A stretch of 64,000 nt of DNA from a virus. The notes under the pieces are model-generated. The model saw only the letters and a program-made list of their open reading frames with translations, had not been told where the DNA came from and ran no database searches. The position numbers and the translations under genes are program-made. Where the stretch lies: positions 7,592-71,591 of the IMG/VR virus record IMGVR_UViG_3300030329_001630. One strand, given 5' to 3'. Below, piece by piece: positions 23,747-54,527 of the stretch. Numbering within the stretch: position 1 is the first letter of the stretch; each line of letters opens with the position of its first letter.

Positions 23747-23858
23747 TGGACTCCTTATCACTCATAATGTTAAGTTTCTTCTTTCCAAAAATTTTCTCAT
23801 ATTCTTTATCATACTTTTTTCTATCTACATCTCTGTATCTATCGCCTTTACCGCTCAT
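23664..23858 (-). CDS. Small basic hypothetical protein (GKGD.YR...Y.KIFG type)
   Basis: Start MSGKGDRYRDVDRKKYDKEYEKIFGKK with AAGGAG RBS. The longer ORF in the track runs into the tRNA. Confidence 0.55.
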   Translation of the reverse strand: MSGKGDRYRDVDRKKYDKEYEKIFGKKKLNIMSDKESNDNMGNVHKRRKKKANKSSVSQRRQSS

Positions 23859-31278: not shown

Positions 31279-31308
31279 GTTGTTTCCTTTCGAGAAACAG
31301 GGTTGGGT

Positions 31309-32872: not shown

Positions 32873-32878
32873 CATGAC

Positions 32879-33773: not shown

Positions 33774-33789
33774 GGTGTGATCCTTTCAG

Positions 33790-33860: not shown

Positions 33861-34351
33861 TCGATTTTCCACCCACCTAACACAAGGGAAAGGTCGGTTC
33901 CACCGACTGTATTATCACCATCAAGATCCCAAACAGAGTTTTCCTTACCCCAGTCATTCAAGAGATCACTTAAGTCATCAGCAGTAAACTCTGTTTTAAT
34001 AATATAAAATATAAAATACCGGGGGCACTGCGTAGGGTTATCCTGCAAGTCAGTGCGGTTCCGCTCCCAGCTAACGAAGAGATGATCGTCAAAGATCTGT
34101 ACTTCATCAAACGAAAGCATGGGTTGGCCCGGATCTGAAGAGATCCAAGGACCGGCCAAGCGGCCCGGTACAAGATCAAAAGTGTAGTTTATACAAGCAG
34201 TTGTATTCTCGTCCCAATGCAATCGGGCCTCACCCTTGTACACAGTACGTGGACCTTCTTCGTAAACTTCATAATATATTTCTGAATTATCATCCCAAGA
34301 ATACTCAGAAAAGAACAACGGGAGCGTAGCCAGAACAAGGTACTTAATCAC
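33857..34351 (-). CDS. Putative secreted protein with a C-terminal dockerin/EF-hand-like module (Phycisphaerae-type)
   Basis: GTG start at 34351 with AGGAG RBS and hydrophobic N-terminus. C-terminus ADDLSDLLNDWG...WDLDGDNTVGGTDLSLVLGGW. Confidence 0.65.
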   Translation of the reverse strand: MIKYLVLATLPLFFSEYSWDDNSEIYYEVYEEGPRTVYKGEARLHWDENTTACINYTFDLVPGRLAGPWISSDPGQPMLSFDEVQIFDDHLFVSWERNRTDLQDNPTQCPRYFIFYIIKTEFTADDLSDLLNDWGKENSVWDLDGDNTVGGTDLSLVLGGWKID

Positions 34352-34692: not shown

Positions 34693-37600
34693 TTACTCCG
34701 TTTGTTTCTGGATTATATTAAGAACATCTAAAGTCTGCCTTAAGGCTTCTCTAGATGCTGTCCCTTGCTTAATGACCCCTATAGCATCTACGATGTCTTG
34801 AGGCTGTTCCGTCTTTATGTCGGGCTGTACTGCCTGTGTCTTAGGAATAAGAGGACTAATACCCGTACCAGTATTTTTGGTGGGATCAGAGACAGGAACA
34901 GGGGTTCTACCTGAGGGATCCATGATACCAATGGGGTGCTCCCATGCTGATAATGCATCGATCTGTCTAAACCCTGCCTGAAGAAGCCATCCCCAAGGGA
35001 TAGGCATCCTATGCATCGAGTTGGCAGCACCTTCAGTAATGTTACCTTCAGACATGTCCTTGATTCCTCCCATGATTCGGGGGATAGTCTGAAGAAGACC
35101 ATTGATCTGCATGATACCAGCCGAGTTAAACGGAGTAGTATTCACAGCCCTATCTCCTCGTAACATCTGTAAGAAGAACGCAGCAGCCATCTGGTTGGCT
35201 CCCAAGAAGGGAACTGCCATAAGAGCTTCCTGAATTTCTGTCCAAGGATCTTTCTTGATTTCAGCAATCATGTCATCAATATTTTTATGGGTCTGCAATT
35301 GAACTAACTTATAGTATAACCATCCGGTTAAGGTATGAGCCAGAACCGTATTTGCCAGAACAAGAGGGCCAGCTAAACCTGCTCTTCTGATTCCGTGGAA
35401 AGTAGAAGAGGAATAGGTAATAAGCCTAGACAAGAGGGTAGCTAAAATACCACCAGATTTAGTACCCACTGGGGCATTAGAGAGTACGGGCTGTTTAGCG
35501 TACTTGACAGCAGCATTAAATGCTAGTTCTCTTACGGCGTTTACTGTTTGGAACTGCTTTGCCCTAATAACAGCCGGGTTAATTTCCTTCCCGTCTGCGT
35601 CAAGAACTTTTTCGGGCAAACCGAACGTAATGTTCTTTCTGAGTTCATCGAAGGGAATCCCAGTCTTTCGGATAACGTCATAGTTATCAACAAAAAGCTT
35701 TTCAAAGAATGGGAACAGTTCTTCGCTGAATAAACCAACCTTAATCATCTCCATAACATCCATAGACGTAAGAGCATCTACTTTCATCTTTTTAAGCTCT
35801 TGTCTGACAATACGGGGAGAAAGATTTACAAAGTCGCCCCCAGAAGCCTCGATAAGCCTGCTTCTGATTTCAGACATACTAGCTTTAATTCTTCTGGTAG
35901 GAACTATTCCTGTTGGGGACTCAGCTTGAATAAAGGTATCTGCGATTCTGTTTACGAACTGCCTTACGCCAATACTTCTAGCTGATGCTGTTTGTTTATC
36001 CATACCGAAAGCTAAAACCCTATACAATTCCTTAATCTTTACGTTGGCTTTAACAGATTCATCAGGTGAAATATCCATCCCAGACCTTTGGATCAAAGTA
36101 GCAGCATGGTGTAAAGCATTCATCGTAAGGAAACCCAAGCCTTCTAAGGTTTGATCCACATCTTTCCTGCTCTTAACTAAAGTAAACGCATCGACCATAT
36201 CACTCTGGAATCCAGTAAGATTATGTTTAAGTGCTGACACCATACTGTGAGGAGTTTCTTCAATAGCAGTAGCAATAGCCAAGCGTGGTGCAATACTAAG
36301 AGCAGTACCAAACTCAGACGCTAAGTTAATGACATGTAAGAACGTATTATCCGTGGGTTTATCGTCTGTTTTAAAAGTACCGATAGAGTAATCATACATT
36401 CTTTCCATGTGCTTTAAGGCACTTGAGAATTTATGGCGTTCGTCTTGTGTGAGAGTACGCATAACAGAATTAGGATCTACTTCAAAGTTCTTATCGTGTA
36501 CTAAGAACTTAATAATTTCTTTTCCGGTAGTTCCAGTTTGAGCGATATCCTGATACATCTTAATAACATCTCTCATACCGAGACCTTTAACCCCAAAGGC
36601 GGGGCCGAACGTTGACTTATCATAAGCCTGCGCTGCAACGCCTCTTCTGATTGATGAAATAAACTGAAGAGGGTCTGTTTCAATAAACATACCAAGTTGG
36701 CGGTTTCTAAGGAAATCTCTAGGCGTTAAGAAGTTATCTCCTATAAAGGAATAACTAGAGGAACCAACTTTAACCATATATTTCCATGCCAGATACTCTG
36801 CTGGGGTAAACTTAGATAAGTTAGCTCCGGCCTTTAACTGAGAGTCTCCATATCTTGTGTTTACTTGCTGAATAAGATCAGTTAATACATTATTCTGATT
36901 AACTTCTTGATCTCCAAAAAGTTCGCCTCTACTTAAAAGATTTCTATATTTAGTTTGAATCTCTTCGGGAAGATCCTTAAATAAGACATTTCCTCTATCT
37001 ACTTCAGATAAGAATTTACCTAATTTGCCATTACCTTTGGCTTGGATAAGCCCTGCTAATACGTTATCTAAGTCATTGATATCAATACCCTCTCCTCTTC
37101 GGGACGGTCTAATAAGGTTATCAGCTAAAGCTATCTGTAAAAGATCGGAATCTACGTATGAATTAGGAGTAGGATCAAGTTTTTCACGAATGATATCAAC
37201 TAATGTGTTTCTGAGTTGCTCTCTTAATATACCCGAATCAGGGGAACTTTCTAAATCTGCGTCATCAAAAACGGCTTTTCTAAACTTAATGGGATAAGCA
37301 CCTTTTTCTAAAAGTTCGTCGCCCATTCGAGGAGAAACCATTCCGCTATCTACCATCTTGCGTACCACGGTTGACCAGAGACCTGTCTTAGGATCAGCCC
37401 ACATTTCCACAATAGGTACAACAAGATTGGCGTACTCATCAAAGTCTTTACCATTGTTTTGTTCGATTAGCTGTTTACCGATAGGTACTTCCTCATATTC
37501 TAACGCCCTTACTCTTTCTTTAAGCCGTGCTGTGATCCCCTCTTTATTGGTATAGTTTAAAGTTAAATCTTGGAAAACAGACTCAAAGAACTCCCAAGGT

Positions 37601-40600
37601 AAGAACGTACCACTACGCTGGCCGCCGGTTGGGCCGACCGTAATGTTTGCTCTTTTCATGTTAATAAGGGCGTGCTGCAACGAATCAAAATCTCCGGCTA
37701 AAGCCGTACCTAACGCATGGATAGTAGGCATGTTTGTAGTAAACGCACCACTTGTAAAATAACTTGTTGCGTCAGCAGCAGAAATTAAAGCGGTGGTTAA
37801 AACCGTTTGCGGCACTGATGCATCCGTCTGATAAGCAAAGTTTCTAGCACCGAACGGAGAAGCCAGCGTATCTGTTATTCTAGCAACTTCGTTAGGACTA
37901 ATAAGTCCCAAAGCCATGCGCGAAATAAACGTAGAAGCCGGAGTTTCAATTCTATTACCTAACCCTGCTGGAATCAGCTTTTCTTCTGCTGCTCGGAGGA
38001 TAACTGCTCTTTCCATATCTGCATCATTTTCGGTCAGTCTCTTAATTGTTTCTAAATCTACCATACCGGTTTCAGCATCTCTAGCCTCTTCAGCAATTTC
38101 CCGAGCTTTCGTATCGTATTCAGCAGCATTTCTTCTACTTGCCTGAGCAGCCGATGGGAATTCCATTCCTCTAGTAAGGTCATCCATAGTTAGAGGATCA
38201 ACACCATCTGGAAGTTCTAAGGGATCGTGATCGGTGCCATACATTATGCGATTTTCTTCTTCCCTCTTCCTAATAATAGGAGTTCGGGTCGGTTGCATTC
38301 TACCAGAAAGAGTCTCAAGAGGAGCCGAGAATAATGCATCCGCATCTCCTAAGTTTAAAATCTCGGTTATTTCTCTTGCAGCACTAATAAACGTATAGCT
38401 ATCTTCAATTCCGTCTGCTAAGTCCTTACTGGCTTTGATGGTATCAAAAGCAGAAGGAATCTTTTTAATAGCTGAAATAGCAAACATCGCCCCAAACAAC
38501 TCACTTGTAGCAACGTTTAAATCGTCCTTAGTAAGAAGCTCTTCTCCTAATTGTTTAAGTCTAGCGATGTATTTTGCATCTGTTGTGACTTCTTCACCGT
38601 GAATCTTTTGTTCGGCTGTTTTGACACTTTCCAGCTCTACGCGCCTAACTTCATTAATAAAAGCTCTTTTCTGCTCCGTATCAAGACGAGTACCTACGTG
38701 GTGCCCGATTTCTTCAAGAATTACGGCAGCAGGCCCAAGCTCAACTTCCTCTCCGTAGAGACTACGTAATGCCGAATGAACGGACAGGACGTTGGTATTA
38801 GGATCGTAATGACCTGCTGATTTTAAGTGAGGCGTTACGTTTAACTCGAAACCGCCTGAATCTCGGTGAGAAACAAACAATTTGAGTAGGCTTTCTTGAG
38901 ATGTAGTAAAGAAGGCTAATTTAAGAATTATAGCGTCGTTGTTGTTTAGCGTTCCGTTAGCAACAAGCCCGTCCCAGTAGTTTCCTACAGTTTTATGTAC
39001 TGCGCTTTGTTTTTCAAAAGCACTTGCTCGATGGTGAGCCGTGTTTACTTTTACTTCATTACCGTCTTTCATTGGAGAAGTAGGAGCAACTTGTTCTCTA
39101 ATCCTTATTTCATCTACTGCTTGCATTGCACCTTCTGTTCTAGGTGAGTAGTAAATATTATTAACTTCTCTTGAAACTTCCCGTGCTACTCGCCATGACT
39201 CAGCAAAAACAGCTATTCTAGAATTGTGGTTATAAACGTCAGTAATTTTAGCTCCTTCAAAAGCTGTACCAGCGAAGTCATTAAGATTCTGTGTTATTTG
39301 ACCATCAGAATTCCATTTTCTGTTTATAGCGAATATCATTTTGCTTAACTCGGCCCACTCTTCCTCAATCTCAGCCTTAAGCGGCATTCCGTTGGATCTA
39401 TGGTTTGGGTTAAACAAGTAATCTTCTTGTTGTCTCAGATTAATGTAAGTTTCTTTCGGTGCTTTGTTGCCGTCCGTAAGGAAATAAGCTTTAATAGCAA
39501 GCCCCCACTTATAGGAACCGTCCTTGCTTAACGCTGTTTTATAGGATTTAATGTTGGTAATAATACCCTCGTCCCAACTCAACCCAGCTAAAAGCTCATC
39601 ACCCAGAAGCTCAGTAGCCTGCTTCTTGTACTTCCACGTATCTTCTTTACTGTTAAGCTCTAAGAACCGAGCGGGTCGAGCCTTTCCGTTTACAATTGTC
39701 TTGTACCTGTTATCTGATACAAACTTTCTAGTTAAATTTCGTTTTTTCATGTTTGCAGCTAACTGCTCAAAGCCAATAGAAAGAGCGGCAGCATTTTCTC
39801 TGGCTTTGTTAATACTTAAACCAGCGTATTTAGTAAACGGATCGTATCCTCCCATGTTAGAAGAACGTTCAGCGTTCATAGGAAGGTCTCTCTTAAGTAA
39901 GGAAGCCAACAGCATTCTGTCAACCACTCTACTATTTTGGGTAAAGTTCAATGCTTTAATCTTATCTTGCATAGTAAGTCTAACAATACCCTGACCTGTA
40001 ACCTTGTGAGGATAGATTAAATTACCAAAAGCATCAACGAAAAATCTCTGATCTCTATCATACTTTATTTGATTTATCTTAGCATTCATCGCCTCTTCAA
40101 AAGTTTTACCGGGATAATTCTTACTGATAAACTCATCAATGTCTCCCAACTGCTCTGATAAGTTAGCCATAACAGCTTCTTTGATTGCGGGTTTAGACAT
40201 GTAAGCGATTGCAGAGTGGTTATCTCCAAACTTAGTTACAACGTTTTCTTCGCCTTCCTTGAAGTAACGAAGAATGTCCTCTACGTCTGCCTTATTGAAA
40301 GCTTCAAGGATGTGCTCATAATTCTCGTTCCTTTTCCTAAACTCTATTCCCTCGTCTAAGCCTTCTTGTCCTCTTACTTTAAGATCCCACCATTCTACGA
40401 ATAAACTGATGTGATTTGCTGTAATCTCATCCTCATCAATCACACCATCAAGCATCCTCTTAACAGCCTGATGCCACATTCCTACTTGGGCATAATTAGT
40501 AAAGAAAAGACCAGACGAGTCTTTAGTTTGTACGCTGGCTGGGGCGTGATAGAGAGTAGAGGCTTCTTTTACTGTCACAGGGTTTAACGGAGAATCAAGA

Positions 40601-43600
40601 ATAATTGTACCCGGTACTTCAGCTTCTCCCATTAACCACGCGGCCATGTTTCCAGCATCAAGGTTTTTAAGAGCAGTGTTTTCCATTGCTTCACCAAATG
40701 TTTTACCATGACCGATGGTTTTTAACCTATCGCCGGTAAAGCTAAGGGGAGACCAAATGCCATTCTTGGCATCGTCTGCCCACCCACCGTCAATAGTTAA
40801 AATCTCTGAGTATCTCAATTCTGCATCAGCCTGTACTTCTCGTATGTTCTCGATAATTGAGAGATACTCAAGATCCTCAAGGGCTTCTTTTTCTGCTTCT
40901 TCGGGTGAATAATCCCGAGTAAGTAATCTTTCTTCTACTTCCCTTTTTCGTGTATTAGCCATAGACTGGAGCGATGCAATATCAGACAACATTTTGTTCT
41001 GTTCTCGTTCTGCATTTAAGTGACGATAAATCTGATATACTTCAAAGTATTCTCCGTTTCCTATGTGGTCATTCACGGCTTTTATATTAACCTGATTAGC
41101 CCAAGTCTCTAAAGAGGCTTTCAAAGATTTAGCCATAATCTCAGGACTGGGTGCTGACTTTAAGTCCCCAAACATTCTCTCTGCAAGAGGAATATCGGTT
41201 CCCTTGCCTTGGTAAAGAGGAATTGTAGTAAGATCTTCTGGGGGAACAGTCCTTAATTCTTTAGCGGTGAAAACAGGAGGTCGTTGAGTTTTATCTAATT
41301 CCTCGCTTCGATCCCTAAGAGTAATAAAATCAGAAACTTCTTGAGATCTGTTTATCTGTGACTTTCTTAAAGATGGAACAGGCGAATCTTTAAACGGTCT
41401 TAAAATAGTCTTGGGGAGGTGACCTAAAATATGAGGCATTCTTCCCGTTGACATTACAATATCCCCGATCTGTTCTTTCATGAAATTACCGATGTTGTCG
41501 GGTCTTTCTTCTCTAGCTGAATCAATGATTTCGCCCACAACACGAAGAAGTTTAGTAGCCCTTTTTAATTTGAACTCTTCGTCGTTTAACTTATTTTTAA
41601 TATTTGTATCTGTTGGATTCTCGGCAAGCTGTTGCTTAAGACCTCTTACCCTTACTGCTAAGTTTTTTACTTCTATGTCGTATTGATTAGCTAAAATCCT
41701 TGCTTGAGTTCTAAGATCATCCCCCAGTTTTGAGGTCTCTTCCCACGCAGAATACCATCTATCTGCTGTTAAGTCTTCAAACTCGTCTCCAAAACGTTTA
41801 TTTAAGAGCGGGGTAATATCGTAAATTTCGCTAAGTTCTTTAATTACTTGGAGAATTGTCCTATCCCTTACTTGTTCGTCAGTAAGGTCACCTTTCGCAA
41901 TTCGTCCCACACCAATAGGAGCATCTGTACCTAAAGTACGGTGCCCTGTACTAGGAGTAGGATCAAGGGCACTGGTAGCAAAGATACGACCCTCAAAAGC
42001 TAGGTTAAGTCTTCTAAATACTTCGTCTCCCCCTGCTGCAAACTTAAACAAGGGCGACATAACGGCTTTTAATCTGTCTTTTAGAGTACCGTCTCCAATA
42101 TCCCCAGTTACAATAGTAAGGAACTTATCCAGTTCTGCTTCATCGAAACCATAACCAGTCCTGCTATAGCTATCCAAGGAATTAAGAACAGCGTTGTCAT
42201 CCATGTATTTAATAAAAAGCTCGTCAATTTGTCTTTGTTTTTCGGTTGCGTTTAAGCTTTTATTATTTACGATTTTCGTAACTTGTGTTTGAATACCGTT
42301 TACTTCCTTTTCCAGCAATTTAGCAGCTTGGTTTCTCTTGCCTGAGTCTAAGGCATGTAATTTATTCATTACAACAGTAATCATTTCATCTTCTGGATCA
42401 ACTGATTTCCCTAAAATTAAACCGCCACGATTAATCTCTGCTAAATCTTCAAACTTCATTAAGGATTCTGCTGCCGGTACATCTCTTTGAGCTTTAGCAA
42501 AATTATTAAGAATGTTACCTAATTCTTTGTTACTTATTCCGCTGGTAGGACCGTATACGTTGTCTTTAATCCAACCCAAAGATGCGTGAGAACTGCGATC
42601 AGCTAAAAGATGGCCCCATAATTCGGAAACACCACCGATATGCTCTCGCCAGTCTGCGCCTAAAGCTCCTTGTACAATACCTTGGTACTGTTCTTCTACT
42701 AATACATCTTTAAGCTTTGCAATCAGAGAGTCACGACCAGCCCCGTAAGAGTCTGTCATAACCGCAGATTTAAACATAGCCTTAGCTTCACCTTCGTCAT
42801 CAAACGCTGTTACAAGTTTACCGAGATTGTCCCAAGCTTCTTTATTTACACCCGCTGGAGGCGTACCCTCAAGATTACGCATAACGCCCTTTGTAACTTC
42901 GTTATAAACAGTGGTTTGTTCCCTCGCCCACCAGTCCTGTAAGTCTTTTCTGAGTTGAATTCCTTCTTCGCCTAAACTATCAGCAATTTCCCCAAAAAGT
43001 TTATTAATGCTTTCTGGATTTGCTCTACTGCCCATAACTAAAGAAAGCATAATGTTTGCACCGGATGCGTCTGCATCCACCTGCATATCATCAGGGAAAA
43101 ACATTTTTGTTACAATGTCTTTATCGTCATCGGACAGGTCATTAAAGTGTTTTGCCATCCACCCAACAAACTCTGCTTCAGTTTTAGGTAAAGTAGTTTT
43201 GTACTTCTCTTTAATCGGCCTAAGCTTATTTTTTAAAAGTTTATTAAAGTTTGCGCGTCCAAGTTCTACAAGGTTATCGTAACCGAACTCTACTTTATAC
43301 ATGATGTTTAACGCATCTCCTAAAGAGCCAGTCATTGAGGCTAACGTTGAGAATCCAAGGCCAATACCACGGAAAGGGTAAACAATGTTTGGCCGTTCTG
43401 TGGTTCCGGCGTTTAAATCATACGCAAAGTCCCAATGCGGTGTTCCCGCTGCATCGTCCACTCTTCCTAACTGAGTTCTAAACATAGTTGATACAGAGTC
43501 GTGAACCGTTAACATAAGGGCCGGGGTGATATTCCTCATCCTCACTTGATTACGTAAAATAAGATCATCAATCGATGTCCTCATTGTATCGTCCGGTCCT

Positions 43601-46600
43601 TTAACCGACCATTGGGGAATAAACCGGAAAGACTCGTTTTGAATAGAAGACCCTCTAATGGGGACGGAATCAATATCCTTAGATAAGTCTCTAATAACTT
43701 CTTCTAATTTATTAATATACTCAGCGTCATTCCCTGCTTCCCTCGCTGCTGTGTATTTCTGTACAATCTGATCTAAGATATAAGCATTTCTTGCTTGTTC
43801 AAAGTTAGCCTGCACCTTTTCATCTGTATCAGCCTGAATATAAATACTTCTGTCTCGCGCTGTGTCTAGAGTTCGCGCTGCGACTACACCCTTTTTACTC
43901 GGCTTTATTTCAGTAACAGCGTTAATTTTCTTAGTGTAACCGTCGCCTATAATAGAGGCTACGACAGCCGTTGCTGCTCTTTGCGGCCCGATGTAATCTC
44001 TTGTGCTACCTAACTCAGAAAAGTCGTTTAGCTCATCCTTAGGGGGTAAACTATTATTAACGTATTCTAAGATAAGCTTAGGAACACTATCGTCGCCCGT
44101 TTTAAGGGGTACACCGCCTGTGTCAATAAGTGTTTTCAGAGCTTCGTGGCCTCTCGCGCCCTCGTTATTATAGATGCTTGTTAATCTTCTTACCAGACTA
44201 GTGTTAAATTCATTTTTCCAATCCTCTTGCGTATAGCCGTCTACATCGGCTCCCTCATCAGCAGCGTATCTTTCATTGTTTTGGCTGAATTTTCTAGCTG
44301 CCCAAAGGGATTTTCCTTCATCCTGTTGATCAAGGTGATTTAAAACATTTCTGATGTTTCCTCCAGCAGTATAGACAACTTCGCCGTTTTCTGTACCAGC
44401 GATTGCATGACCAAAACGATTATTAATGCTGTACTTCATTCCTGCATTAACGTAATCTTTCATTTCGTCATTAACACGGCCTAACCTGTTGATTAAAGCG
44501 TCTAAGACTTCTCTACCGTTATACACACCACGGTTAGAATACTGAATGATATCTGGCAGATTAATTAAAAAGCCGTACCCCTTTTCAGCCGTTTCAATAA
44601 TACTCAATAAGTCTAATCTGCTAATAGAAGCATCGATCTCTAACCCGGACTCTGATAAAACAGATCTAACTGTAGAGTGGGCGTGGAGATGTGCCCGAAG
44701 CATAGTAATGATTTTAAGAAGAGGTTCTGCGTGTGCTTCAGAAGATCTTAATTCGATAGCAAATCTACCTAACTGTCTGTCAATCCACTGCTGCCTTATA
44801 GTGCTTTCCCACTCGTTTTTAGCAGCCGTCGTAAAGATATCAAATAGTCTTCTTTGTTCGTTTTTTGCTACTCTTAGGTTTTCTGCGTCAGTCGCACCAA
44901 GTGTTTCCCCCTTTTCTCTAGCCACCCTTTGTTTTCTTGAAAGCCTCAAACGTGTTTCAACAACATCGGAGTACTCCTTACTTGTGTGGGCTTTCGTTCT
45001 TACCATCCGTCTAATCATAGCGTCAGAGACGGTTGGTGAGTCAGCAGCGTCCTCGATGAGACCCCTAAGGTGGGCTTTCGCAAACTCTGACATCTGACCA
45101 AGATCATCATACGGTTCAAAGTCTGCGAATAAGCCCTTAGTACTATCGTCTGCACCTTCAAAGTATTCTTTTAACTCGTAAGCTTTTTGTTCTTTAAGTG
45201 TTCTATTGGCTTTTTTTGCTCTTGACTTAAGACCTCTTCCCCACTTGACCCCTACTCTTTTAGCTATAAGATCTAACACAGGGACTGATAAATCATTAAC
45301 AACGCTGCTAAAGTCTTCATCACCGATTCTTCTTAAAGTCTCTGCTAAGTCAACTTCTGATCGGGCAATTACTTTAGCAACTACATTCGGGTCTGCGCCG
45401 TACACCCACGTAACATTAGGATTGTTACGGTTAACAGGAGTAGCTTGCTGTACTTTATTCCAATTATTCTCCAGTGTTTTTATTTCTTGGTAAGTACGCA
45501 TAATGACAGCTTCGTTGTGTATCGGTGCGCCTTCTTCTTGTGCATCCAAAAGTCTTTTCACAAAGCCCAGTTCTGCGAGGAAGGACGATTCTGACTTAGA
45601 TACATCTTTGGTAGAAAACTCTTTTACAAGAATATCTCCCATTTCTCGTGTCATGTCGCTAAGTTTTTGTTTGGTGTATTCTACTGCTGCCGCTTCTTTA
45701 TTTGGATTAAGAAGATAGTTAATAAACTCTCTTACGTCCTCTGATGTTTCCTGTGCGCTGGCGATCCTTCTTAATTCTTTTTCAGTAAAGGCGTTCCTAA
45801 CCCACAGTTCTCTTCGAGCCACAAGCGATACTGGTGTTTCAGGGTCAAGAAGATACGAAAGAATAGGGCGCATTCCTAACTCGTTCGGTTCTCCGTATAA
45901 GCGACTACGAACAGTTTGCCGCCTGTACCATGCTACCCATCTCCATGCTTCATTCGGGTTTTTCTGGAAAAAGTTTGCAACGTTATGTGCAAGGTTCACA
46001 TCCGCTAAAAGAACGTCAGATTCTGCCGCCTTTAAGTCGTCTTTAACTTTTTCTACAGGTCTAAGATCATCAACTTCTTCAGTTGGAATTTGTTTAGCTT
46101 GAAGCCCTTCTTTTTGTTTTTCAAGCTTATTAGCTTTTGCATTTAAAGCGCTTTTCTTTGTGTTCCATTTTTTTAGAGCAGCTTTTTCTTCTTTAGTTCT
46201 GTCTTTAGGCTTTTTGCCCATAATTTCCTGAGGTTTAGCTTCCTCATGCTCTTCTCTGGCGGCTCTAGTTTGAGTAAGGTCTTCCTCGATTGCCTCAATG
46301 CGGTCTGCGTTTTCTTTAGCTGCTGCTTCAGACTGTGTTTTTCTTTCCAGTGCAGCTTCTGTTTGTTTTAGTTCTTCTTCGAGTGATGCTACCTTTTCTT
46401 GCGTCTGTGCCTTTTGTTCTTCGCCGCCTCTTACTGTTTCCACAAAAGAATCACTTAGAGGCATGTTTGAATCATCGTCTCTAAGGGGTCGTGATAATTC
46501 CTCTTCCATAATTGCTGTGGGTTCTTCGGATTCATACTGTTTTGCTGCTAAACGAATATAGGTTTTTTTAGCAACACTGTATTTTTCAAGGATATTCTCA

Positions 46601-48900
46601 TCTGTACTTAAACCGAGTCTTTCTCGTTTTGCATCGTGCTGCCTCTGCAACGCCATAGTAAGATCATTGTTTAATTCATCAAAGGAAGAAGACTCCAAAC
46701 GTTTGCCGCCCCAAGCATTTTCAACCGCCGCAGTAAAGTCTAAATCAGCATCTTCTGCTAAGTCATAAAGAGCATCTACTCTGCTTTCAAAACCTTCCAT
46801 AAGACTTGCTAAGTCATCTTGAGCCGCTGTTCTTGCGTCTTCGTCTAAGTTTGTGTCTTCGATTTTTGCTTTTAAGGTAGTAATCTCAGTTTTATCTAAA
46901 GCGTCCCAAGCTTGGGTTAAAGCCATTTGTTTTTTAGCCGTGATTATATCAGGAGGAGTCATTAAAAATCTTACTGTATCTCCGGCCCATTTGACTGGCT
47001 TACCCCACCACGATCTAGTAGCTTCTCCACTGTCCGGCCCATTTAAGCTTTTCAGTACCTGTCTTGTTGCAATTGCTCTGCTTAATCTACCTGTTTGCGT
47101 GAAAACCTCACCAATAGTGGGCGACAGGACCGCACCCAGTCCAGTACTAGCAATCATCATAGTGCCGAATACACCGGCCTGCTTCCTTTCAAAAGCAATC
47201 ATGGCAGCTTCTTCTTCTCCTAAGATAAGCCTGTTAAACTCATCTTCATAAGAAGTCATGTAGTTGTATTCAATCGCACCCCACGCTGCTCCTTCCAAGC
47301 CACCCGCAATAGCTCTCCAACTTGCACGGGCCTTAAAAGATTTTCCTAAATATTCTTCTTTATTTAAATACCTCCACAAGTTTTTTCCGTTTGCTCCTAC
47401 TCCCAATCCTTTTACTCTACCGCCTCCTAATGTAAACTTAATAGACGGGAATAAAAGCTCAGAAGCAATCTGAGTGGGTAAAAATCTTCTAGTAAAGCCA
47501 ACACCCTCCATTACATTTGGAGTCCATTTACTGATAGCAGCTTTAATTTTAGTGGCTCTTGAGTTGCCCTTGCCCATCGTCTCAATAACTTTCATTGCTC
47601 TGGCAAATCTTGAGGTTTCTTTAGCAACCCTTAATCCTAAAAGACCGGTACGAGCAACTAACGCACCACCTAAAGAAACAGCAGTTAATCCTACTGTAGC
47701 TGCAATATCTAAGGCAAGAGCCGGATCTGTAGTAAAGCCGTACCCAAGCATGTTAAGCATACCAGAAGCACCCCACTGCCCCTCACTTCGCTGTAAGAAA
47801 TTGCCTAAAACTTGTCCTTCTCTTGCTCTATTGACAGCAGCAAAGAACTGATACGAGTTTTTGCTTCTCTTTAAAGCGTCAACGATTTGTGGGTTATCTG
47901 CTAAAAACGCAGCCATATCCTCACCAAGAACATCAGCCCCAAGTAAATTACCGCTACCATCTGTAATTGCTTTGAGCATTTTAGCAGCATCCGCTTCCCA
48001 TCCCTCTTCTGTTTGTTTTAAAAGAGCATCAGCGCGGGTTTCTGTCCAGAAGGGAGCAGCAGGGCCGTCTTCGGGTATTTGTCCCGTTGCCCAATCCCAC
48101 CCAAGAGTAAAAGGACTTAAAGGAGTAAAATAAGAAAGTTCCCACATATTTCGGAAGAACCACCAATCGTTTGGTCCTTCATCCATATTATCAATATATT
48201 TTCTAATCGCTGCCTGACGATCTCTCATTTCTTTGGCTTTGTCTTCTCCAAGAAAAGCCTCAAAAATACTATCGATACCTTTAAGTTGGGCCTCTTGTAA
48301 CTGAAGTTGGACCGCCCTTGATGCTCTAACTCTAACTGTAGAGCCTAACGCAGATCCGTAGTTCCTTGCTGCCACTCTGTTTTGATAACGCGACATCGAA
48401 TAGCCGTTAGCTAAATTATACATTCTAACCTGACCATCGCCCGAATAGTTCGCTACAAAATCTTCGGGGTTAATAACCTGAGAAAGGTCTTTCCCTGTAC
48501 TAGCCGCCTCTCGAAGGCGTTCAACTACATTAGCCTCGGTTAAATCGTGTATATCTGGGCCGTCTTCTTCGGAAGACCTTTCAACTAATGCTTGTAAAGC
48601 CGCCAATCTTTTTTTATTAGCTTCTTTTCTTTCTAACGTTTCTGTGACACTAAACCTAAACGGAGACATAAGATTTTCGTATTTAGCTTGGATAAGATCC
48701 TTGTAAGCAAATTTGGTTTTAAGATCAACTAGCTGGCTAACAGCAAAGAAATCAACATCGTTAATATGGTTTTCGTAGGCATCTGCCCTATCTAAATGGT
48801 CTTTAATAGAAGGTGGATTAAAAAGTTTCATCCTATCCTGCATTTTTTCAGCTTCTAAGTAATTCTTATACCAATCCGAGTTATACGCAAGTCTTGTCAT
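34693..48900 (-). CDS. Giant (4735 aa) internal virion / ejection protein with single-subunit RNA polymerase-like and zincin-like motifs
   Basis: Third of three genes of increasing size, matching the gp14/15/16 arrangement. Contains VDADASG, VYNEV, KAMFKSAVMTDSYGAG, MNKLHALDS and GHYDP...ILEEIGHH. Confidence 0.75.
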   Translation of the reverse strand: MTRLAYNSDWYKNYLEAEKMQDRMKLFNPPSIKDHLDRADAYENHINDVDFFAVSQLVDLKTKFAYKDLIQAKYENLMSPFRFSVTETLERKEANKKRLAALQALVERSSEEDGPDIHDLTEANVVERLREAASTGKDLSQVINPEDFVANYSGDGQVRMYNLANGYSMSRYQNRVAARNYGSALGSTVRVRASRAVQLQLQEAQLKGIDSIFEAFLGEDKAKEMRDRQAAIRKYIDNMDEGPNDWWFFRNMWELSYFTPLSPFTLGWDWATGQIPEDGPAAPFWTETRADALLKQTEEGWEADAAKMLKAITDGSGNLLGADVLGEDMAAFLADNPQIVDALKRSKNSYQFFAAVNRAREGQVLGNFLQRSEGQWGASGMLNMLGYGFTTDPALALDIAATVGLTAVSLGGALVARTGLLGLRVAKETSRFARAMKVIETMGKGNSRATKIKAAISKWTPNVMEGVGFTRRFLPTQIASELLFPSIKFTLGGGRVKGLGVGANGKNLWRYLNKEEYLGKSFKARASWRAIAGGLEGAAWGAIEYNYMTSYEDEFNRLILGEEEAAMIAFERKQAGVFGTMMIASTGLGAVLSPTIGEVFTQTGRLSRAIATRQVLKSLNGPDSGEATRSWWGKPVKWAGDTVRFLMTPPDIITAKKQMALTQAWDALDKTEITTLKAKIEDTNLDEDARTAAQDDLASLMEGFESRVDALYDLAEDADLDFTAAVENAWGGKRLESSSFDELNNDLTMALQRQHDAKRERLGLSTDENILEKYSVAKKTYIRLAAKQYESEEPTAIMEEELSRPLRDDDSNMPLSDSFVETVRGGEEQKAQTQEKVASLEEELKQTEAALERKTQSEAAAKENADRIEAIEEDLTQTRAAREEHEEAKPQEIMGKKPKDRTKEEKAALKKWNTKKSALNAKANKLEKQKEGLQAKQIPTEEVDDLRPVEKVKDDLKAAESDVLLADVNLAHNVANFFQKNPNEAWRWVAWYRRQTVRSRLYGEPNELGMRPILSYLLDPETPVSLVARRELWVRNAFTEKELRRIASAQETSEDVREFINYLLNPNKEAAAVEYTKQKLSDMTREMGDILVKEFSTKDVSKSESSFLAELGFVKRLLDAQEEGAPIHNEAVIMRTYQEIKTLENNWNKVQQATPVNRNNPNVTWVYGADPNVVAKVIARSEVDLAETLRRIGDEDFSSVVNDLSVPVLDLIAKRVGVKWGRGLKSRAKKANRTLKEQKAYELKEYFEGADDSTKGLFADFEPYDDLGQMSEFAKAHLRGLIEDAADSPTVSDAMIRRMVRTKAHTSKEYSDVVETRLRLSRKQRVAREKGETLGATDAENLRVAKNEQRRLFDIFTTAAKNEWESTIRQQWIDRQLGRFAIELRSSEAHAEPLLKIITMLRAHLHAHSTVRSVLSESGLEIDASISRLDLLSIIETAEKGYGFLINLPDIIQYSNRGVYNGREVLDALINRLGRVNDEMKDYVNAGMKYSINNRFGHAIAGTENGEVVYTAGGNIRNVLNHLDQQDEGKSLWAARKFSQNNERYAADEGADVDGYTQEDWKNEFNTSLVRRLTSIYNNEGARGHEALKTLIDTGGVPLKTGDDSVPKLILEYVNNSLPPKDELNDFSELGSTRDYIGPQRAATAVVASIIGDGYTKKINAVTEIKPSKKGVVAARTLDTARDRSIYIQADTDEKVQANFEQARNAYILDQIVQKYTAAREAGNDAEYINKLEEVIRDLSKDIDSVPIRGSSIQNESFRFIPQWSVKGPDDTMRTSIDDLILRNQVRMRNITPALMLTVHDSVSTMFRTQLGRVDDAAGTPHWDFAYDLNAGTTERPNIVYPFRGIGLGFSTLASMTGSLGDALNIMYKVEFGYDNLVELGRANFNKLLKNKLRPIKEKYKTTLPKTEAEFVGWMAKHFNDLSDDDKDIVTKMFFPDDMQVDADASGANIMLSLVMGSRANPESINKLFGEIADSLGEEGIQLRKDLQDWWAREQTTVYNEVTKGVMRNLEGTPPAGVNKEAWDNLGKLVTAFDDEGEAKAMFKSAVMTDSYGAGRDSLIAKLKDVLVEEQYQGIVQGALGADWREHIGGVSELWGHLLADRSSHASLGWIKDNVYGPTSGISNKELGNILNNFAKAQRDVPAAESLMKFEDLAEINRGGLILGKSVDPEDEMITVVMNKLHALDSGKRNQAAKLLEKEVNGIQTQVTKIVNNKSLNATEKQRQIDELFIKYMDDNAVLNSLDSYSRTGYGFDEAELDKFLTIVTGDIGDGTLKDRLKAVMSPLFKFAAGGDEVFRRLNLAFEGRIFATSALDPTPSTGHRTLGTDAPIGVGRIAKGDLTDEQVRDRTILQVIKELSEIYDITPLLNKRFGDEFEDLTADRWYSAWEETSKLGDDLRTQARILANQYDIEVKNLAVRVRGLKQQLAENPTDTNIKNKLNDEEFKLKRATKLLRVVGEIIDSAREERPDNIGNFMKEQIGDIVMSTGRMPHILGHLPKTILRPFKDSPVPSLRKSQINRSQEVSDFITLRDRSEELDKTQRPPVFTAKELRTVPPEDLTTIPLYQGKGTDIPLAERMFGDLKSAPSPEIMAKSLKASLETWANQVNIKAVNDHIGNGEYFEVYQIYRHLNAEREQNKMLSDIASLQSMANTRKREVEERLLTRDYSPEEAEKEALEDLEYLSIIENIREVQADAELRYSEILTIDGGWADDAKNGIWSPLSFTGDRLKTIGHGKTFGEAMENTALKNLDAGNMAAWLMGEAEVPGTIILDSPLNPVTVKEASTLYHAPASVQTKDSSGLFFTNYAQVGMWHQAVKRMLDGVIDEDEITANHISLFVEWWDLKVRGQEGLDEGIEFRKRNENYEHILEAFNKADVEDILRYFKEGEENVVTKFGDNHSAIAYMSKPAIKEAVMANLSEQLGDIDEFISKNYPGKTFEEAMNAKINQIKYDRDQRFFVDAFGNLIYPHKVTGQGIVRLTMQDKIKALNFTQNSRVVDRMLLASLLKRDLPMNAERSSNMGGYDPFTKYAGLSINKARENAAALSIGFEQLAANMKKRNLTRKFVSDNRYKTIVNGKARPARFLELNSKEDTWKYKKQATELLGDELLAGLSWDEGIITNIKSYKTALSKDGSYKWGLAIKAYFLTDGNKAPKETYINLRQQEDYLFNPNHRSNGMPLKAEIEEEWAELSKMIFAINRKWNSDGQITQNLNDFAGTAFEGAKITDVYNHNSRIAVFAESWRVAREVSREVNNIYYSPRTEGAMQAVDEIRIREQVAPTSPMKDGNEVKVNTAHHRASAFEKQSAVHKTVGNYWDGLVANGTLNNNDAIILKLAFFTTSQESLLKLFVSHRDSGGFELNVTPHLKSAGHYDPNTNVLSVHSALRSLYGEEVELGPAAVILEEIGHHVGTRLDTEQKRAFINEVRRVELESVKTAEQKIHGEEVTTDAKYIARLKQLGEELLTKDDLNVATSELFGAMFAISAIKKIPSAFDTIKASKDLADGIEDSYTFISAAREITEILNLGDADALFSAPLETLSGRMQPTRTPIIRKREEENRIMYGTDHDPLELPDGVDPLTMDDLTRGMEFPSAAQASRRNAAEYDTKAREIAEEARDAETGMVDLETIKRLTENDADMERAVILRAAEEKLIPAGLGNRIETPASTFISRMALGLISPNEVARITDTLASPFGARNFAYQTDASVPQTVLTTALISAADATSYFTSGAFTTNMPTIHALGTALAGDFDSLQHALINMKRANITVGPTGGQRSGTFLPWEFFESVFQDLTLNYTNKEGITARLKERVRALEYEEVPIGKQLIEQNNGKDFDEYANLVVPIVEMWADPKTGLWSTVVRKMVDSGMVSPRMGDELLEKGAYPIKFRKAVFDDADLESSPDSGILREQLRNTLVDIIREKLDPTPNSYVDSDLLQIALADNLIRPSRRGEGIDINDLDNVLAGLIQAKGNGKLGKFLSEVDRGNVLFKDLPEEIQTKYRNLLSRGELFGDQEVNQNNVLTDLIQQVNTRYGDSQLKAGANLSKFTPAEYLAWKYMVKVGSSSYSFIGDNFLTPRDFLRNRQLGMFIETDPLQFISSIRRGVAAQAYDKSTFGPAFGVKGLGMRDVIKMYQDIAQTGTTGKEIIKFLVHDKNFEVDPNSVMRTLTQDERHKFSSALKHMERMYDYSIGTFKTDDKPTDNTFLHVINLASEFGTALSIAPRLAIATAIEETPHSMVSALKHNLTGFQSDMVDAFTLVKSRKDVDQTLEGLGFLTMNALHHAATLIQRSGMDISPDESVKANVKIKELYRVLAFGMDKQTASARSIGVRQFVNRIADTFIQAESPTGIVPTRRIKASMSEIRSRLIEASGGDFVNLSPRIVRQELKKMKVDALTSMDVMEMIKVGLFSEELFPFFEKLFVDNYDVIRKTGIPFDELRKNITFGLPEKVLDADGKEINPAVIRAKQFQTVNAVRELAFNAAVKYAKQPVLSNAPVGTKSGGILATLLSRLITYSSSTFHGIRRAGLAGPLVLANTVLAHTLTGWLYYKLVQLQTHKNIDDMIAEIKKDPWTEIQEALMAVPFLGANQMAAAFFLQMLRGDRAVNTTPFNSAGIMQINGLLQTIPRIMGGIKDMSEGNITEGAANSMHRMPIPWGWLLQAGFRQIDALSAWEHPIGIMDPSGRTPVPVSDPTKNTGTGISPLIPKTQAVQPDIKTEQPQDIVDAIGVIKQGTASREALRQTLDVLNIIQKQTE

Positions 48901-48923
48901 TTTATCTCCATTCTCATGGTTTG

Positions 48924-53822: not shown

Positions 53823-54527
53823 TTATTGTTGAATAGTGATCGGTGTCCAGCCACCGCCGCCACCGCCGCCGCCAGCCATCCCTCCGCTATATTGCTGGGC
53901 AGCATTCAAAGCACCGTAAATGCCTCCTACCATAGAAATTCCTTGAGCAGCACCTTTAATGCCTCCCATCATGGTAGCCATACCGACATCTTGCATCTGG
54001 GGAGGCAGGCCCGGAATAAAGGCACCCATCGTAGTGGTAGATAAATCTGTGCCTTGTCGGAGATTATTTTCATAGTTTTGTTTTAAAGCTCTCGATGCGT
54101 TTATCTTAGAGAAAAACTCATTCTTCCAGTTTTCTCCTCCCTGTAATTCCATTTGCTTTTTAATCTGCTGGGCAGTACCAGAGGATAAACTCATTTTAGC
54201 TGAAAGCTGTGAAGTAACAGATGAGTTAATAGCTTTTTGCTGTTTACTTAATTGTTTAGCTCTTTGTTCAAAAGTTTTTGCTAAATCAATTTGCTGTAAT
54301 GCGTAATTTCTAGTTGATGCTTCAAATAAATGTCTATTTTGGGCATTTCTTGCTGCGTTTTTTTGTGCTACCTGTACCTGCTGCTCCCCATAACGCCAAG
54401 CCTCTAAAGCTGTATTATGATTATATTGCCCCATTGCCGCCGCGTTTTGAGATTTTGCAGCAGAGTTAGCGGCATATGCGCCGACACCTGCCATAGCTAC
54501 CGCACCAACTGCTAATGCTACACCCAT
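53823..54527 (-). CDS. Internal virion protein (T7 gp14-like)
   Basis: Ala/Gly-rich hydrophobic N-terminus, Gln/Ala coiled coil and Gly-rich hydrophobic C-terminus. Confidence 0.7.
   Translation of the reverse strand: MGVALAVGAVAMAGVGAYAANSAAKSQNAAAMGQYNHNTALEAWRYGEQQVQVAQKNAARNAQNRHLFEASTRNYALQQIDLAKTFEQRAKQLSKQQKAINSSVTSQLSAKMSLSSGTAQQIKKQMELQGGENWKNEFFSKINASRALKQNYENNLRQGTDLSTTTMGAFIPGLPPQMQDVGMATMMGGIKGAAQGISMVGGIYGALNAAQQYSGGMAGGGGGGGGWTPITIQQ

What the first reader, a model, noticed from the sequence alone, without database searches (positions are those of the whole stretch)
42100..43560. Second, virion-type single-subunit RNA polymerase domain embedded in the 4735-aa ejection protein
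Seen in the sequence: the giant protein has, in T7-RNAP order and spacing, a motif-A-like QVDADASGANI (nt ~43060-43085, aa ~1940), a VYNEV helix (T7 DIYGIV), a motif-B KAMFKSAVMTDSYGAG (nt ~42735-42780; T7 KRSVMTLAYG) about 100 aa later, and MNKLHALDS (nt ~42343-42370; T7 PNFVHSQD) about 130-140 aa after that. Established knowledge: T7-like phages have one non-virion RNAP, and injected single-subunit RNAPs are the hallmark of N4-like phages. Inference: this phage keeps a normal T7 RNAP (21182-23746) and also packages an RNAP-fold protein in its gp16 slot. That protein could transcribe the ~10 kb of early genes upstream of the T7 RNAP gene, or pull the genome into the cell.
Basis: partly seen in the sequence, partly recalled or inferred. 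Interest (0 to 1): 0.93.

Follow-up and report, generated by a model that had tools for sequence, protein, structure and literature searches.

The report
Diverged RNA-polymerase module in giant ejection protein
An uncultured marine T7-type phage carries, inside a 4,735-residue cysteine-free protein that it probably injects with its DNA, a very diverged but real piece of a T7/N4-type RNA polymerase, so it may bring its own polymerase into the cell as phage N4 does, although activity and a complete polymerase fold are not shown.

Summary
The fourth (MNKLHALDS, called motif C / PNFVHSQD) lies in a variable, gapped stretch and is not a motif.

The region aa ~1991-2116 is a true relative of the fingers of single-subunit RNA polymerases. 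Profile-profile comparison with T7-like RNAPs gives 95% probability, E 2e-8. T7 RNAP and human mitochondrial RNAP are the only 2 of 48,161 solved chains with Z >= 8, for two separate models. The four O-helix residues (K/R, K, M, Y) are kept.

A complete right-hand fold is not shown. AlphaFold leaves the palm below pLDDT 50, and motif A is not supported by profiles. The invariant T-I/V-H-D lies upstream of motif A, and a T/DxxGR-like segment (z 4.1 against N4 vRNAPs) lies downstream of motif B. That is a non-canonical order.

Injection is inferred only. The gene order small / medium / giant matches N4 gp52 / gp51 / gp50. There are no cysteines in 12 of 12 giants, nor in N4's three ejection proteins.

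The scan found the same family before on other DNA (e1-5890148) and reached the same conclusion. Verdict: new variant of a known kind.

The parts
34693..48900 (-). Giant ORF, 4735 aa, no cysteine; putative ejected internal virion protein (IVP-D / N4 gp50 analogue)
   Evidence: 11 giant relatives of 3971-4707 aa; conserved neighbours
41911..43623 (-). RNAP-like module in the wide sense, aa ~1760-2330 (all conserved polymerase-like motifs lie here)
   Evidence: invariant columns in 18 of 18 sequences; hhalign 1700-2450 vs T7-like RNAPs prob 90%, E 1.6e-6
42553..42930 (-). Fingers subdomain, aa ~1991-2116: the only part with significant sequence and fold support
   Evidence: hhalign prob 95.3%, E 2.1e-8, to own RNAP 566-688; VIA Z 9.5 / 9.4 to T7 RNAP 569-689 and human mtRNAP; PF00940 model 117-187 on a relative
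42736..42783 (-). Motif B / O-helix, aa 2040-2055, [K/R]2040-x3-K2044-x3-M2048-x3-Y2052-G
   Evidence: z 18.7 vs T7-like profile, z 6.6 vs N4 family profile
42895..42909 (-). VYNEV, aa 1998-2002, start of the helix equivalent to the 'DIY' helix of T7-like RNAPs; Y1999 invariant
43051..43083 (-). Motif-A-like D1942-A-D1944-x-x-G1947-x-N, aa 1940-1950
   Evidence: invariant in 18 of 18; right distance from motif B; resembles N4-family E-x-D-G; not significant by profile comparison
43495..43524 (-). P1793-A-x-M-x-T-[IV]-H1800-D1801-[AS], candidate motif C, but upstream of motif A
   Evidence: P, H, D invariant in 18 of 18; same P(-8)...D spacing as N4-family motif C; hhalign maps it to RNAP 760-794 (E 0.03) and to N4 934-960, both at noise level
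41938..42021 (-). T/DxxGR-like segment, aa 2294-2321 (F-[FY]-R-x-L...G-R2305-x-[FY]...D-x4-K-x2-R2321), downstream of motif B
   Evidence: R2305, R2321 invariant; maps to T/DxxGR in both profiles: z 4.1, 0 of 50 shuffles (N4 family), z 2.3, 1 of 50 (T7-like); E 0.039 in the N4 scan
42343..42369 (-).
   Evidence: pLDDT below 50
47641..47712 (-). Only strongly hydrophobic, Gly-rich segment of the giant, aa 397-420; weak likeness to N4 gp50 aa 117-140
   Evidence: hydropathy; 48% identity over 23 aa, E 0.11: a lead only
48924..53810 (-). 1628-aa cysteine-free protein just upstream; IVP-C / N4 gp51-like position
   Evidence: no family hit
53823..54527 (-). 234-aa cysteine-free protein with hydrophobic N-terminus; IVP-B / N4 gp52-like position
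21182..23761 (-). Ordinary T7-type single-subunit RNAP, 859 aa (the phage's first, non-embedded polymerase)
   Evidence: PF00940 E 6e-64; phrog_414 E 2e-141

Best explanation
The 4735-aa gene encodes an internal virion (ejection) protein of an uncultured ~71.5-kb T7-type podovirus. The phage probably packs it in the capsid and passes it unfolded through the tail and the periplasm together with two smaller cysteine-free partners, as N4 does with gp52, gp51 and gp50.

Its middle part (aa ~1760-2330) is a very diverged module of the T7/N4 single-subunit RNA polymerase family. The fingers, with the complete nucleotide-binding O-helix (K/R2040, K2044, M2048, Y2052), are shown by sequence profiles and by fold. 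A D-A-D motif at the motif-A position, an invariant T-I/V-H-D and a T/DxxGR-like segment are conserved, but they stand in the order C-like, A, B, T/DxxGR-like instead of T/DxxGR, A, B, C.

The most likely function (inferred, not shown) is an injected RNA polymerase. It would start transcription of the first-entering genes before the phage's own 859-aa T7-type RNAP is made, and would help draw the DNA in.
For: Family and conservation: 9 giant relatives of 3971-4707 aa among 12 hits in 1.84 billion representatives, and 2 more. 25 of 1200 aligned positions are invariant in 18 of 18, and 12 of them sit in the five motif clusters.

Sequence homology of the fingers: hhalign vs 41 T7-like RNAPs gives prob 62% / 75% and 95.3%, E 2.1e-8 for aa 1990-2130. 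Against 10 N4-family vRNAPs it gives 77%, E 2e-5. PF00940 hits the giant ORF of a relative at 17.9 bits, E 2e-5, and 1 of 10 members at E 3.4e-4. Column-shuffle z is 18.7 and 6.6.

Fold: T7 RNAP (Z 9.5, rmsd 2.7, 99 aligned) and human mtRNAP (Z 9.4, rmsd 2.7, 91 aligned) are the only 2 of 48,161 chains with Z >= 8. The next best is 7.1. The aligned T7 residues 569-689 agree with the hhalign mapping. A second model repeats this and adds N4 mini-vRNAP at Z 5.1.

T/DxxGR-like segment: it maps to that motif in both profiles, z 4.1 (0 of 50 shuffles) and z 2.3 (1 of 50).

Ejection-protein reading: the order TerL, p163 (missing in 1 of the 5), p234, a 1.3-1.6k-aa protein, then the giant is kept in 5 of 5 related loci inspected; the downstream p172 is seen in only 2 of them. 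There are 0 Cys in 12 of 12 giants, in p1628 and in p234, against 1.2-2.5% in the phage's replication enzymes, RNAP and terminase; portal and capsid protein have 0.4-0.6%. N4 gp50, gp51 and gp52 also have 0 Cys.

Co-occurrence: a T7-type RNAP is found in 2 of 2 relatives that are at least 90% complete.

Precedent: the N4 vRNAP is embedded in an IVP-D homolog (PMC4819975, passages read).
Against: No Pfam, PHROG or PDB-sequence hit for this giant itself. Foldseek found nothing in PDB or BFVD.

Both AlphaFold models are poor (mean pLDDT 62 and 51), and the motif-A and H-D stretches are below 50, so no palm, thumb or converging active site was seen.

Motif A and the H-D motif are not significant in profile comparison. 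Matches of their strength (E 0.014-0.08) occur at 4 other places in a 78-window control scan.

No conserved acidic motif stands where motif C should be. The motif order is not canonical and is not a simple circular permutation.

The VIA tool warns that helical models can reach Z up to about 13 by chance.

There are no virion, expression or activity data. No similarity to N4 late (virion) proteins was found by tblastn.
Confidence: 0.57

Rival explanations
1. The module is a relic. A polymerase was once fused into the ejection protein, but only the fingers and scattered palm pieces survive. It now serves a non-catalytic role, for example gripping DNA or nucleotides during genome delivery, or as a structural bead of the ejectosome.
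For: Only the fingers reach significance. The palm is not modelled. Canonical motif C is absent from its place, and T/DxxGR is out of order. PF00940 stays below its cut-off.
Against: Residues that matter only for catalysis and nucleotide choice are invariant at 18-41% identity to the query: K2044, M2048, Y2052, D1942, D1944, H1800, D1801. A relic would be expected to lose them.
Confidence: 0.3
2. The protein is not a virion or ejection protein. It would be a giant cytoplasmic or secreted phage protein that happens to contain a polymerase-like domain.
For: No virion data. No hit to T7 gp16, N4 gp50 or any structural family. The block lies after the terminase gene, not in the classical T7 gp13-16 place.
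Against: Complete lack of cysteine in 12 of 12 giants and in two upstream neighbours mirrors the three proven N4 ejection proteins. The small / medium / giant order is the same. The gene sits in the late structural/packaging half of the genome.
Confidence: 0.07
3. The motifs are a chance resemblance and the region has nothing to do with polymerases.
For: phmmer, hmmsearch and BLASTP against PDB sequences and against the phage's own RNAP find nothing. Foldseek finds nothing.
Against: hhalign E 2e-8 and shuffle z 18.7. Two ssRNAPs are the top 2 of 48,161 chains in two models, on the same residues. PF00940 hits relatives. In the protein-language-model search, 10 of the ten best hits with a family share an RNAP family or clan (a lead only).
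Confidence: 0.03

Closest known systems
Phage N4 gp50 virion RNA polymerase (Schitoviridae), with ejection partners gp51 and gp52
   Same: A giant single chain with a single-subunit RNAP module in its middle. No cysteine. Preceded by a small and a medium cysteine-free protein in the same order. Motif A has acid-x-Asp (N4 family E-x-D-G, here D-A-D). T/DxxGR-like segment with the same R...D/N...K..R spacing. The phage also has a second, T7-like RNAP (for N4 this is recalled).
   Different: No detectable sequence similarity outside the polymerase motifs. The protein is 1,235 aa longer. The fingers are closer to T7/mitochondrial RNAP (Z 9.4-9.5) than to N4 mini-vRNAP (Z 5.1). Motif order is non-canonical. 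In tblastn against N4 positions 25-70 kb, the window's portal, capsid, terminase and primase-helicase proteins found nothing. The second RNAP is one 859-aa chain, not a heterodimer.
T7-like single-subunit RNAP (PF00940; T7 gp1, mitochondrial RNAP)
   Same: Fingers fold and the O-helix residues R/K-x3-K-x3-M-x3-Y-G. The DIY-type helix precedes it at the same distance.
   Different: Below the Pfam cut-off. No N-terminal promoter-binding domain, thumb, specificity loop or C-terminal motif C in place could be recognised. Embedded in a 4735-aa protein.
T7 gp16 / internal virion protein D family, which hosts cargo domains (Hardies et al. 2016, PMC4819975; passages read)
   Same: Largest protein of a block of increasing size (163, 234, 1628, 4735 aa) in a podovirus with T7-like portal, capsid and tail tube A/B. 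Largely helical. The concept of a cytoplasm-destined domain inside an IVP.
   Different: Homology to gp16 was not shown here. The block lies after the terminase gene. No lytic transglycosylase domain was found.
Same family in a related genome, found earlier by this scan (e1-5890148; 4,719-residue protein)
   Same: Same architecture and same conclusion. That protein is probably the one in my loci L002/L003 (4,719 aa from the first start codon in L003; about 31% identical to this one).
   Different: Different genome. Here I add the column-shuffle and sliding-window controls, the N4-family profile, the out-of-order T/DxxGR-like segment and the cysteine comparison with N4.

Membership tests
T7/N4-type single-subunit RNA polymerase (PF00940 superfamily) | Motif B / O-helix: R/K-x3-K-x3-M-x3-Y-G | tested here: met
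   K/R2040, K2044, M2048, Y2052 kept in all rows; hhalign 95.2%, E 2.6e-8 on 36 columns; z 18.7 and 6.6 vs shuffles
T7/N4-type single-subunit RNA polymerase (PF00940 superfamily) | Fingers subdomain fold | tested here: met
   T7 RNAP Z 9.5 (rmsd 2.7, 99 aligned) and mtRNAP Z 9.4 (rmsd 2.7, 91 aligned) are the only 2 of 48,161 chains at Z >= 8; repeated with a second model. This region has pLDDT 60-89
T7/N4-type single-subunit RNA polymerase (PF00940 superfamily) | Motif A with catalytic Asp about 100 aa before motif B | tested here: inconclusive
   D1942-A-D1944-x-x-G invariant in 18 of 18 at the right distance; profile comparison not above shuffles; pLDDT below 50
T7/N4-type single-subunit RNA polymerase (PF00940 superfamily) | Motif C (hydrophobic strand-H/F-D) 180-280 aa after motif B | tested here: not met
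No invariant acidic residue between aa 2056 and 2330. An invariant T-I/V-H-D exists, but 143 aa before motif A, and its profile matches are at noise level
T7/N4-type single-subunit RNA polymerase (PF00940 superfamily) | T/DxxGR motif 115-135 aa before motif A | tested here: not met
   Nothing conserved of that kind upstream. A T/DxxGR-like segment lies 261 aa after motif B instead
T7/N4-type single-subunit RNA polymerase (PF00940 superfamily) | Pfam PF00940 at or above its gathering score (22 bits) | tested here: not met
   No hit for this protein; 17.9 bits in a relative; 1 of 10 members at E 3.4e-4
T7/N4-type single-subunit RNA polymerase (PF00940 superfamily) | Complete right-hand fold with palm and thumb; catalytic residues converge | tested here: inconclusive
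   Two AlphaFold2 models, mean pLDDT 62.2 and 50.7, palm stretches below 50; coordinates could not be inspected
T7/N4-type single-subunit RNA polymerase (PF00940 superfamily) | DNA-templated RNA synthesis | not testable with these tools
   needs protein and assay
N4-type virion RNA polymerase (Schitoviridae gp50) | Giant cysteine-free chain encoded after a small and a medium cysteine-free ejection protein | tested here: met
   0 Cys in the giant, p1628 and p234; 0 Cys in N4 gp50, gp51, gp52; gene order
N4-type virion RNA polymerase (Schitoviridae gp50) | Sequence similarity to gp50 N- and C-terminal domains or Pfam vRNAP families (PF21867, PF21894, PF21624) | tested here: not met
   hmmscan of 10 members at E <= 1 lists none of them. 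In the hhalign scan, 3 of 46 windows reach E < 0.05, all in the polymerase part. Only a 23-aa hydrophobic match, E 0.11. These families appear only as a language-model lead
N4-type virion RNA polymerase (Schitoviridae gp50) | Other Schitoviridae hallmark genes in the genome | tested here: not met
   tblastn of 12 window proteins against N4 positions 25-70 kb: no structural or terminase match at E <= 1; tail tube A/B, Gp2.5-like SSB and primase-helicase match PHROG families that I recognise as T7-type
N4-type virion RNA polymerase (Schitoviridae gp50) | Present in virions and ejected into the host | not testable with these tools
   no isolate; nearest cultured RNAPs are only about 25% identical
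T7 gp16 / IVP-D | Detectable homology to gp16 family, or lytic transglycosylase domain | not tested
   No gp16 profile was built. Pfam and PHROGs give nothing. Only position and size argue for it

The most novel reading that the evidence does not exclude
The polymerase is active and its palm is built in a rearranged chain order: motif C hairpin first, then motif A, the fingers with motif B, and the T/DxxGR element last. That would be the first permuted member of the T7/N4/Pol-A-type right-hand polymerases, comparable to the C-A-B permutation known (recalled) in birnavirus and permutotetravirus RNA-dependent RNA polymerases. It would sit in a second, independent lineage of phages that inject their own RNA polymerase.
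Probability: 0.22. Interest if true: 0.9.

Novelty: new variant of a known kind. Interest (0 to 1): 0.72.

Why it matters
Injected RNA polymerases have been taken as the hallmark of N4-like phages (and, with a different fold, of crAss-like phages; recalled). Here a separate, uncultured, apparently marine lineage with T7-type tail tube, single-strand-binding and primase-helicase genes has its own giant cysteine-free protein with a polymerase module. The module is closer in its fingers to T7 and mitochondrial RNAP than to N4.

If it is active, polymerase injection arose, or was kept, more widely among podoviruses than thought. Such phages would be independent of host transcription from the first second of infection. 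The unusual motif order would be a new test case for how right-hand polymerases can be rewired. The module is also a candidate for a new, very divergent single-subunit RNAP for biotechnology.

Tried and rejected
Direct sequence searches with the region found nothing:
- phmmer and an 8-sequence profile against PDB sequences.
- BLASTP against the phage's own RNAP.
- Pfam and PHROGs.
- tblastn against 50,697 phage records.
- The word-indexed protein search at near lengths.

Foldseek of model 1 against PDB and BFVD gave only helical noise. hhalign against the single N4 mini-vRNAP sequence gave nothing. A 10-member N4 family profile was needed.

Motif C, upstream candidate. I tried to place it by profile comparison. 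The upstream T-I/V-H-D stretch aligns to the PNFVHSxD...IHDS part of T7-like RNAPs (E 0.03), and aa 1850-1916 aligns to their C-terminal tail (E 0.08-0.44). The 78-window control scan shows equally good matches at unrelated places: aa 2783-2801 to RNAP 758-776 at E 0.014, aa 4042-4061 to RNAP 780-799 at E 0.025, and aa 2230-2258 to RNAP 304-332 at E 0.041. I therefore do not count any of these.

Other motif candidates considered and dropped:
- D2253 ('FDE') as motif C: it is N in 2 of 18 sequences.
- The E of 'EGR' as a catalytic acid: absent in several rows.
- 'FRGLGFGF' as T/DxxGR: its R is missing in 6 of 18 rows.
- A DxDxD two-barrel-type motif: the third position is S, Q or E, never D.

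The second AlphaFold job on a narrower region (aa 1741-2360) was worse than the first.

Literature: two full-text searches found no description of this lineage or of a permuted T7-type polymerase. Supplements were not consulted (closed). Only abstracts and passages of PMC4819975, PMC10654107 and PMC13434306 were read.

Not used: complex prediction, the look-up of sequencing runs and read laying.
Full report
WHAT AND WHERE. The window is positions 7592-71591 of a 71,591-base virus record. Its first 99 bases recur at its end, so it is a circularly closed assembly of about 71.5 kb. Nearly all genes lie on the minus strand. Reading that strand gives:
- small early genes, three tRNAs, and an 859-aa T7-type RNA polymerase (PF00940 E 6e-64, phrog_414 E 2e-141);
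- a Gp2.5-like SSB, primase-helicase, DNA polymerase, exonuclease and ribonucleotide reductase;
- portal, scaffold, capsid, tail tube A, and a 1828-aa tail tube B;
- two large unassigned proteins, one of which wraps the record ends, and the large terminase;
- then 163-aa, 234-aa, 1628-aa and 4735-aa proteins.
The finding lies in the last of these, ORF 34693..48900.

THE OBSERVATION. All four strings exist where stated. To judge them I collected relatives. A full HMMER search of 1.84 billion representatives with aa 1251-2400 gave 12 hits. Nine are giants of 3971-4707 aa at 25-32% identity, two are near-identical fragments and one is a 227-aa fragment. A profile search added two giants, one at 38% identity. 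Pattern scans gave 4 viral and 7 metagenomic loci, 9 distinct contigs.

In an 18-sequence alignment, 25 of 1200 positions are invariant. I left out near-duplicates L003, L012 and P0007, and the three fragments. The fourth, MNKLHALDS, sits in a gapped, unconserved stretch that both models leave below pLDDT 50. It is not a motif.

IS IT POLYMERASE-RELATED? Simple searches say nothing. Sensitive ones agree with each other:
- PF00940 hits the giant ORF of two near-identical relatives at model positions 117-187 (17.9 bits, E 2e-5, below the 22-bit cut-off), and 1 of 10 members at E 3.4e-4.
- Profile-profile comparison with 41 T7-like RNAPs (alignment A4) aligns the DIY-type helix and motif B in register: 62% and 75% probability with the tool, and 95.3%, E 2.1e-8 for aa 1990-2130 against RNAP 566-688 in my own hhalign run.
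- A profile of 10 N4-family vRNAPs that I built gives 77%, E 2e-5 on N4 mini-vRNAP 603-701.
- Shuffling the alignment columns 50 times gives z 18.7 and 6.6 for motif B.
- The four residues that are invariant in the T7-like O-helix (R614, K618, M622, Y626 of the phage's own RNAP) are matched by K/R2040, K2044, M2048 and Y2052.

FOLD. AlphaFold2 on aa 1401-2600 with the 18-row alignment gave mean pLDDT 62. Foldseek found nothing. The exhaustive VIA search of 48,161 chains put T7 RNAP first (3e2e_A, Z 9.5, rmsd 2.7 A, 99 residues, model 597-716 = aa 1997-2116 on T7 569-689). Human mitochondrial RNAP came second (Z 9.4, rmsd 2.7, 91 residues). These are the only two with Z >= 8, and the next best is 7.1. 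The T7 residues are those expected from the sequence mapping.

A second model (aa 1741-2360, mean pLDDT 51) gave the same two leaders (Z 9.4 each, next 6.0). N4 mini-vRNAP came at rank 27 (Z 5.1, rmsd 3.7, 112 residues, starting at the motif-A position). The tool warns that helical models can score high by chance. What counts here is that both leaders are ssRNAPs and that the residue ranges agree with an independent method. I regard the fingers as established.

THE PALM IS NOT ESTABLISHED. The D-A-D and T-I/V-H-D stretches are below pLDDT 50 in both models. Motif A gets no profile support, although it is invariant, correctly spaced and resembles the N4-family E-x-D-G.

No conserved acid stands where motif C belongs. 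The invariant P1793...H1800-D1801 has the look of motif C, with the same P(-8) as N4-family motif C. hhalign pairs it with motif C of both families. But it lies 143 aa before motif A, and the scores (E 0.03-0.45, z 1.2-1.4) equal those of unrelated places in a 78-window control scan.

Downstream of motif B, aa 2294-2321 (F-[FY]-R-x-L...G-R2305-x-[FY]...D-x4-K-x2-R2321) matches T/DxxGR and its following loop, residue spacing included. The match holds in both profiles, with z 4.1 (0 of 50 shuffles) against N4 and z 2.3 (1 of 50) against T7-likes. It is the third-best of 46 windows in the N4 scan (E 0.039).

The apparent order is thus C-like, A, B, T/DxxGR-like. That is neither canonical nor a simple circular permutation. 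I cannot tell whether this is a rewired active palm or the debris of one. An earlier first-reader note (e1-6183622) had already remarked on the upstream VHDS.

IS IT EJECTED? There are no data on particles. Three indirect points:
- The order TerL, 234-aa, 1.3-1.6k-aa, giant is kept in 5 of 5 related loci I inspected, with the 163-aa gene in 4 of them. The rising sizes recall T7 gp13-16 and N4 gp52-gp51-gp50 (PMC13434306 abstract).
- All 12 giants (3971-4735 aa), the 1628-aa and the 234-aa proteins have no cysteine at all, while the phage's RNAP, DNAP, primase-helicase, RNR and terminase have 1.2-2.5%. N4 gp50, gp51 and gp52 likewise have none, and 9 of 10 N4-family vRNAP pieces have none. This fits proteins that must cross the oxidising periplasm unfolded (my inference).
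- The giant's only strongly hydrophobic segment (aa 397-420) resembles N4 gp50 aa 117-140 (48% over 23 residues, E 0.11). This is a lead only.
Hardies et al. showed that the N4 polymerase sits inside an IVP-D homolog and that IVPs host cytoplasm-destined domains (PMC4819975, passages). The block here is after the terminase gene, so 'gp16 slot' is right by neighbourhood, not by map position.

MECHANISM. Most likely (about 0.55-0.6): an injected polymerase, as in N4, that transcribes the first DNA to enter until the 859-aa RNAP takes over. Shown: polymerase-family fingers with an intact nucleotide-binding helix; conservation of candidate catalytic residues; the cysteine-free ejection-type context; and co-occurrence with a T7-type RNAP in 2 of 2 near-complete relatives. 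Inferred: packaging, ejection, activity, template and timing.

The main rival is an exapted, inactive remnant (0.3). A possibly related observation: the 10-mer TCCACTATCA occurs 6 times exactly, always on the coding strand, 4 times within 31805-33295 just downstream of the giant gene. No other 12-mer recurs 4 or more times on that strand. Its CACTAT core recalls T7-type promoters (recalled). Which polymerase, if any, uses it is open.

COMPARISON AND NOVELTY. The thing works like N4 gp50 but is not a member of that family. There is no similarity outside the motifs, the fingers are nearer to T7/mtRNAP, and the genome backbone is T7-type. It fails three defining tests for a canonical T7-type RNAP: motif C in place, T/DxxGR in place, and the Pfam cut-off.

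The nearest cultured phages have RNAPs only about 25% identical. Two literature searches found no description. This scan met the same family in a related genome before (e1-5890148) and concluded the same, and my tests agree with it. I class it as a new variant of a known kind. The permuted-palm reading (about 0.2) is the bold possibility.

LIMITS. The alignment is shallow (18 rows, Neff about 3.6). Supplements were closed. Some motif names and T7/N4 residue roles are recalled; the N4 numbers R424, D559, K670, Y678 and D951 were checked against the sequence.

Noticed in passing
window 34693-54527 (giant, 1628-aa and 234-aa genes): Total absence of cysteine in the giant (4735 aa), the 1628-aa and the 234-aa proteins, and in 11 of 11 giant relatives. 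The three proven ejection proteins of phage N4 (gp50, gp51, gp52) are also cysteine-free. This could serve as a cheap marker for ejected proteins of podoviruses.
   Followed up: partly
window 38701-38718 (aa 3395-3400 of the giant): Motif L-E-E-x-G-H: in the 10-sequence family alignment E3396, E3397, G3399 and H3400 are invariant and L3395 nearly so. It looks like a zincin HExxH with the first His replaced by Glu; no family hit.
   Followed up: no
window 11249, 26757, 31805, 32268, 32642, 33286 (- strand): TCCACTATCA occurs 6 times exactly, all on the coding strand, 4 of them in 1.5 kb just downstream of the giant gene. Two are followed within about 25 nt by CCTCCGCGTRGGCAGC, which has 3 copies. 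Candidate promoters; the core resembles T7-type promoters.
   Followed up: partly
window 20060-20677 (-): 205-aa protein next to the T7-type RNAP gene, with weak matches to phage sigma factors (phrog_351 E 9e-5) and a GerE/LuxR-type HTH (E 3.7e-4, below cut-off): a possible sigma-like regulator.
   Followed up: partly
record ends: window 61458-64000 and L018:1-3844: The first 99 bases of the record repeat at its end (circular assembly). The ORFs open at both ends join into one gene of roughly 2,100 aa of unknown function after a 744-aa gene: probably fibres or further virion proteins.
   Followed up: partly
L018:6108-11594 (window 2-4003 is its 3' part): Tail tubular protein B is 1828 aa, more than twice the usual size. 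Only its last ~500 aa match the tail family phrog_457.
   Followed up: no
window 30000-34000: G+C rises to 0.51 against ~0.40-0.45 elsewhere. ORFs of 150-250 aa appear on both strands. The short minus-strand ORFs carry a repeated strong ribosome-binding stretch (TGAAAGGAGCACACCA, 3 copies).
   Followed up: no
locally built N4-family alignment (L017, L019-L027): In 10 of 10 N4-family vRNAPs, motif A is E-x-D-G (an acid two residues before the catalytic Asp), and in 8 of 10 a Pro stands 8 residues before the motif-C Asp. Both features recur in the giants (D-A-D; P1793...D1801).
   Followed up: partly
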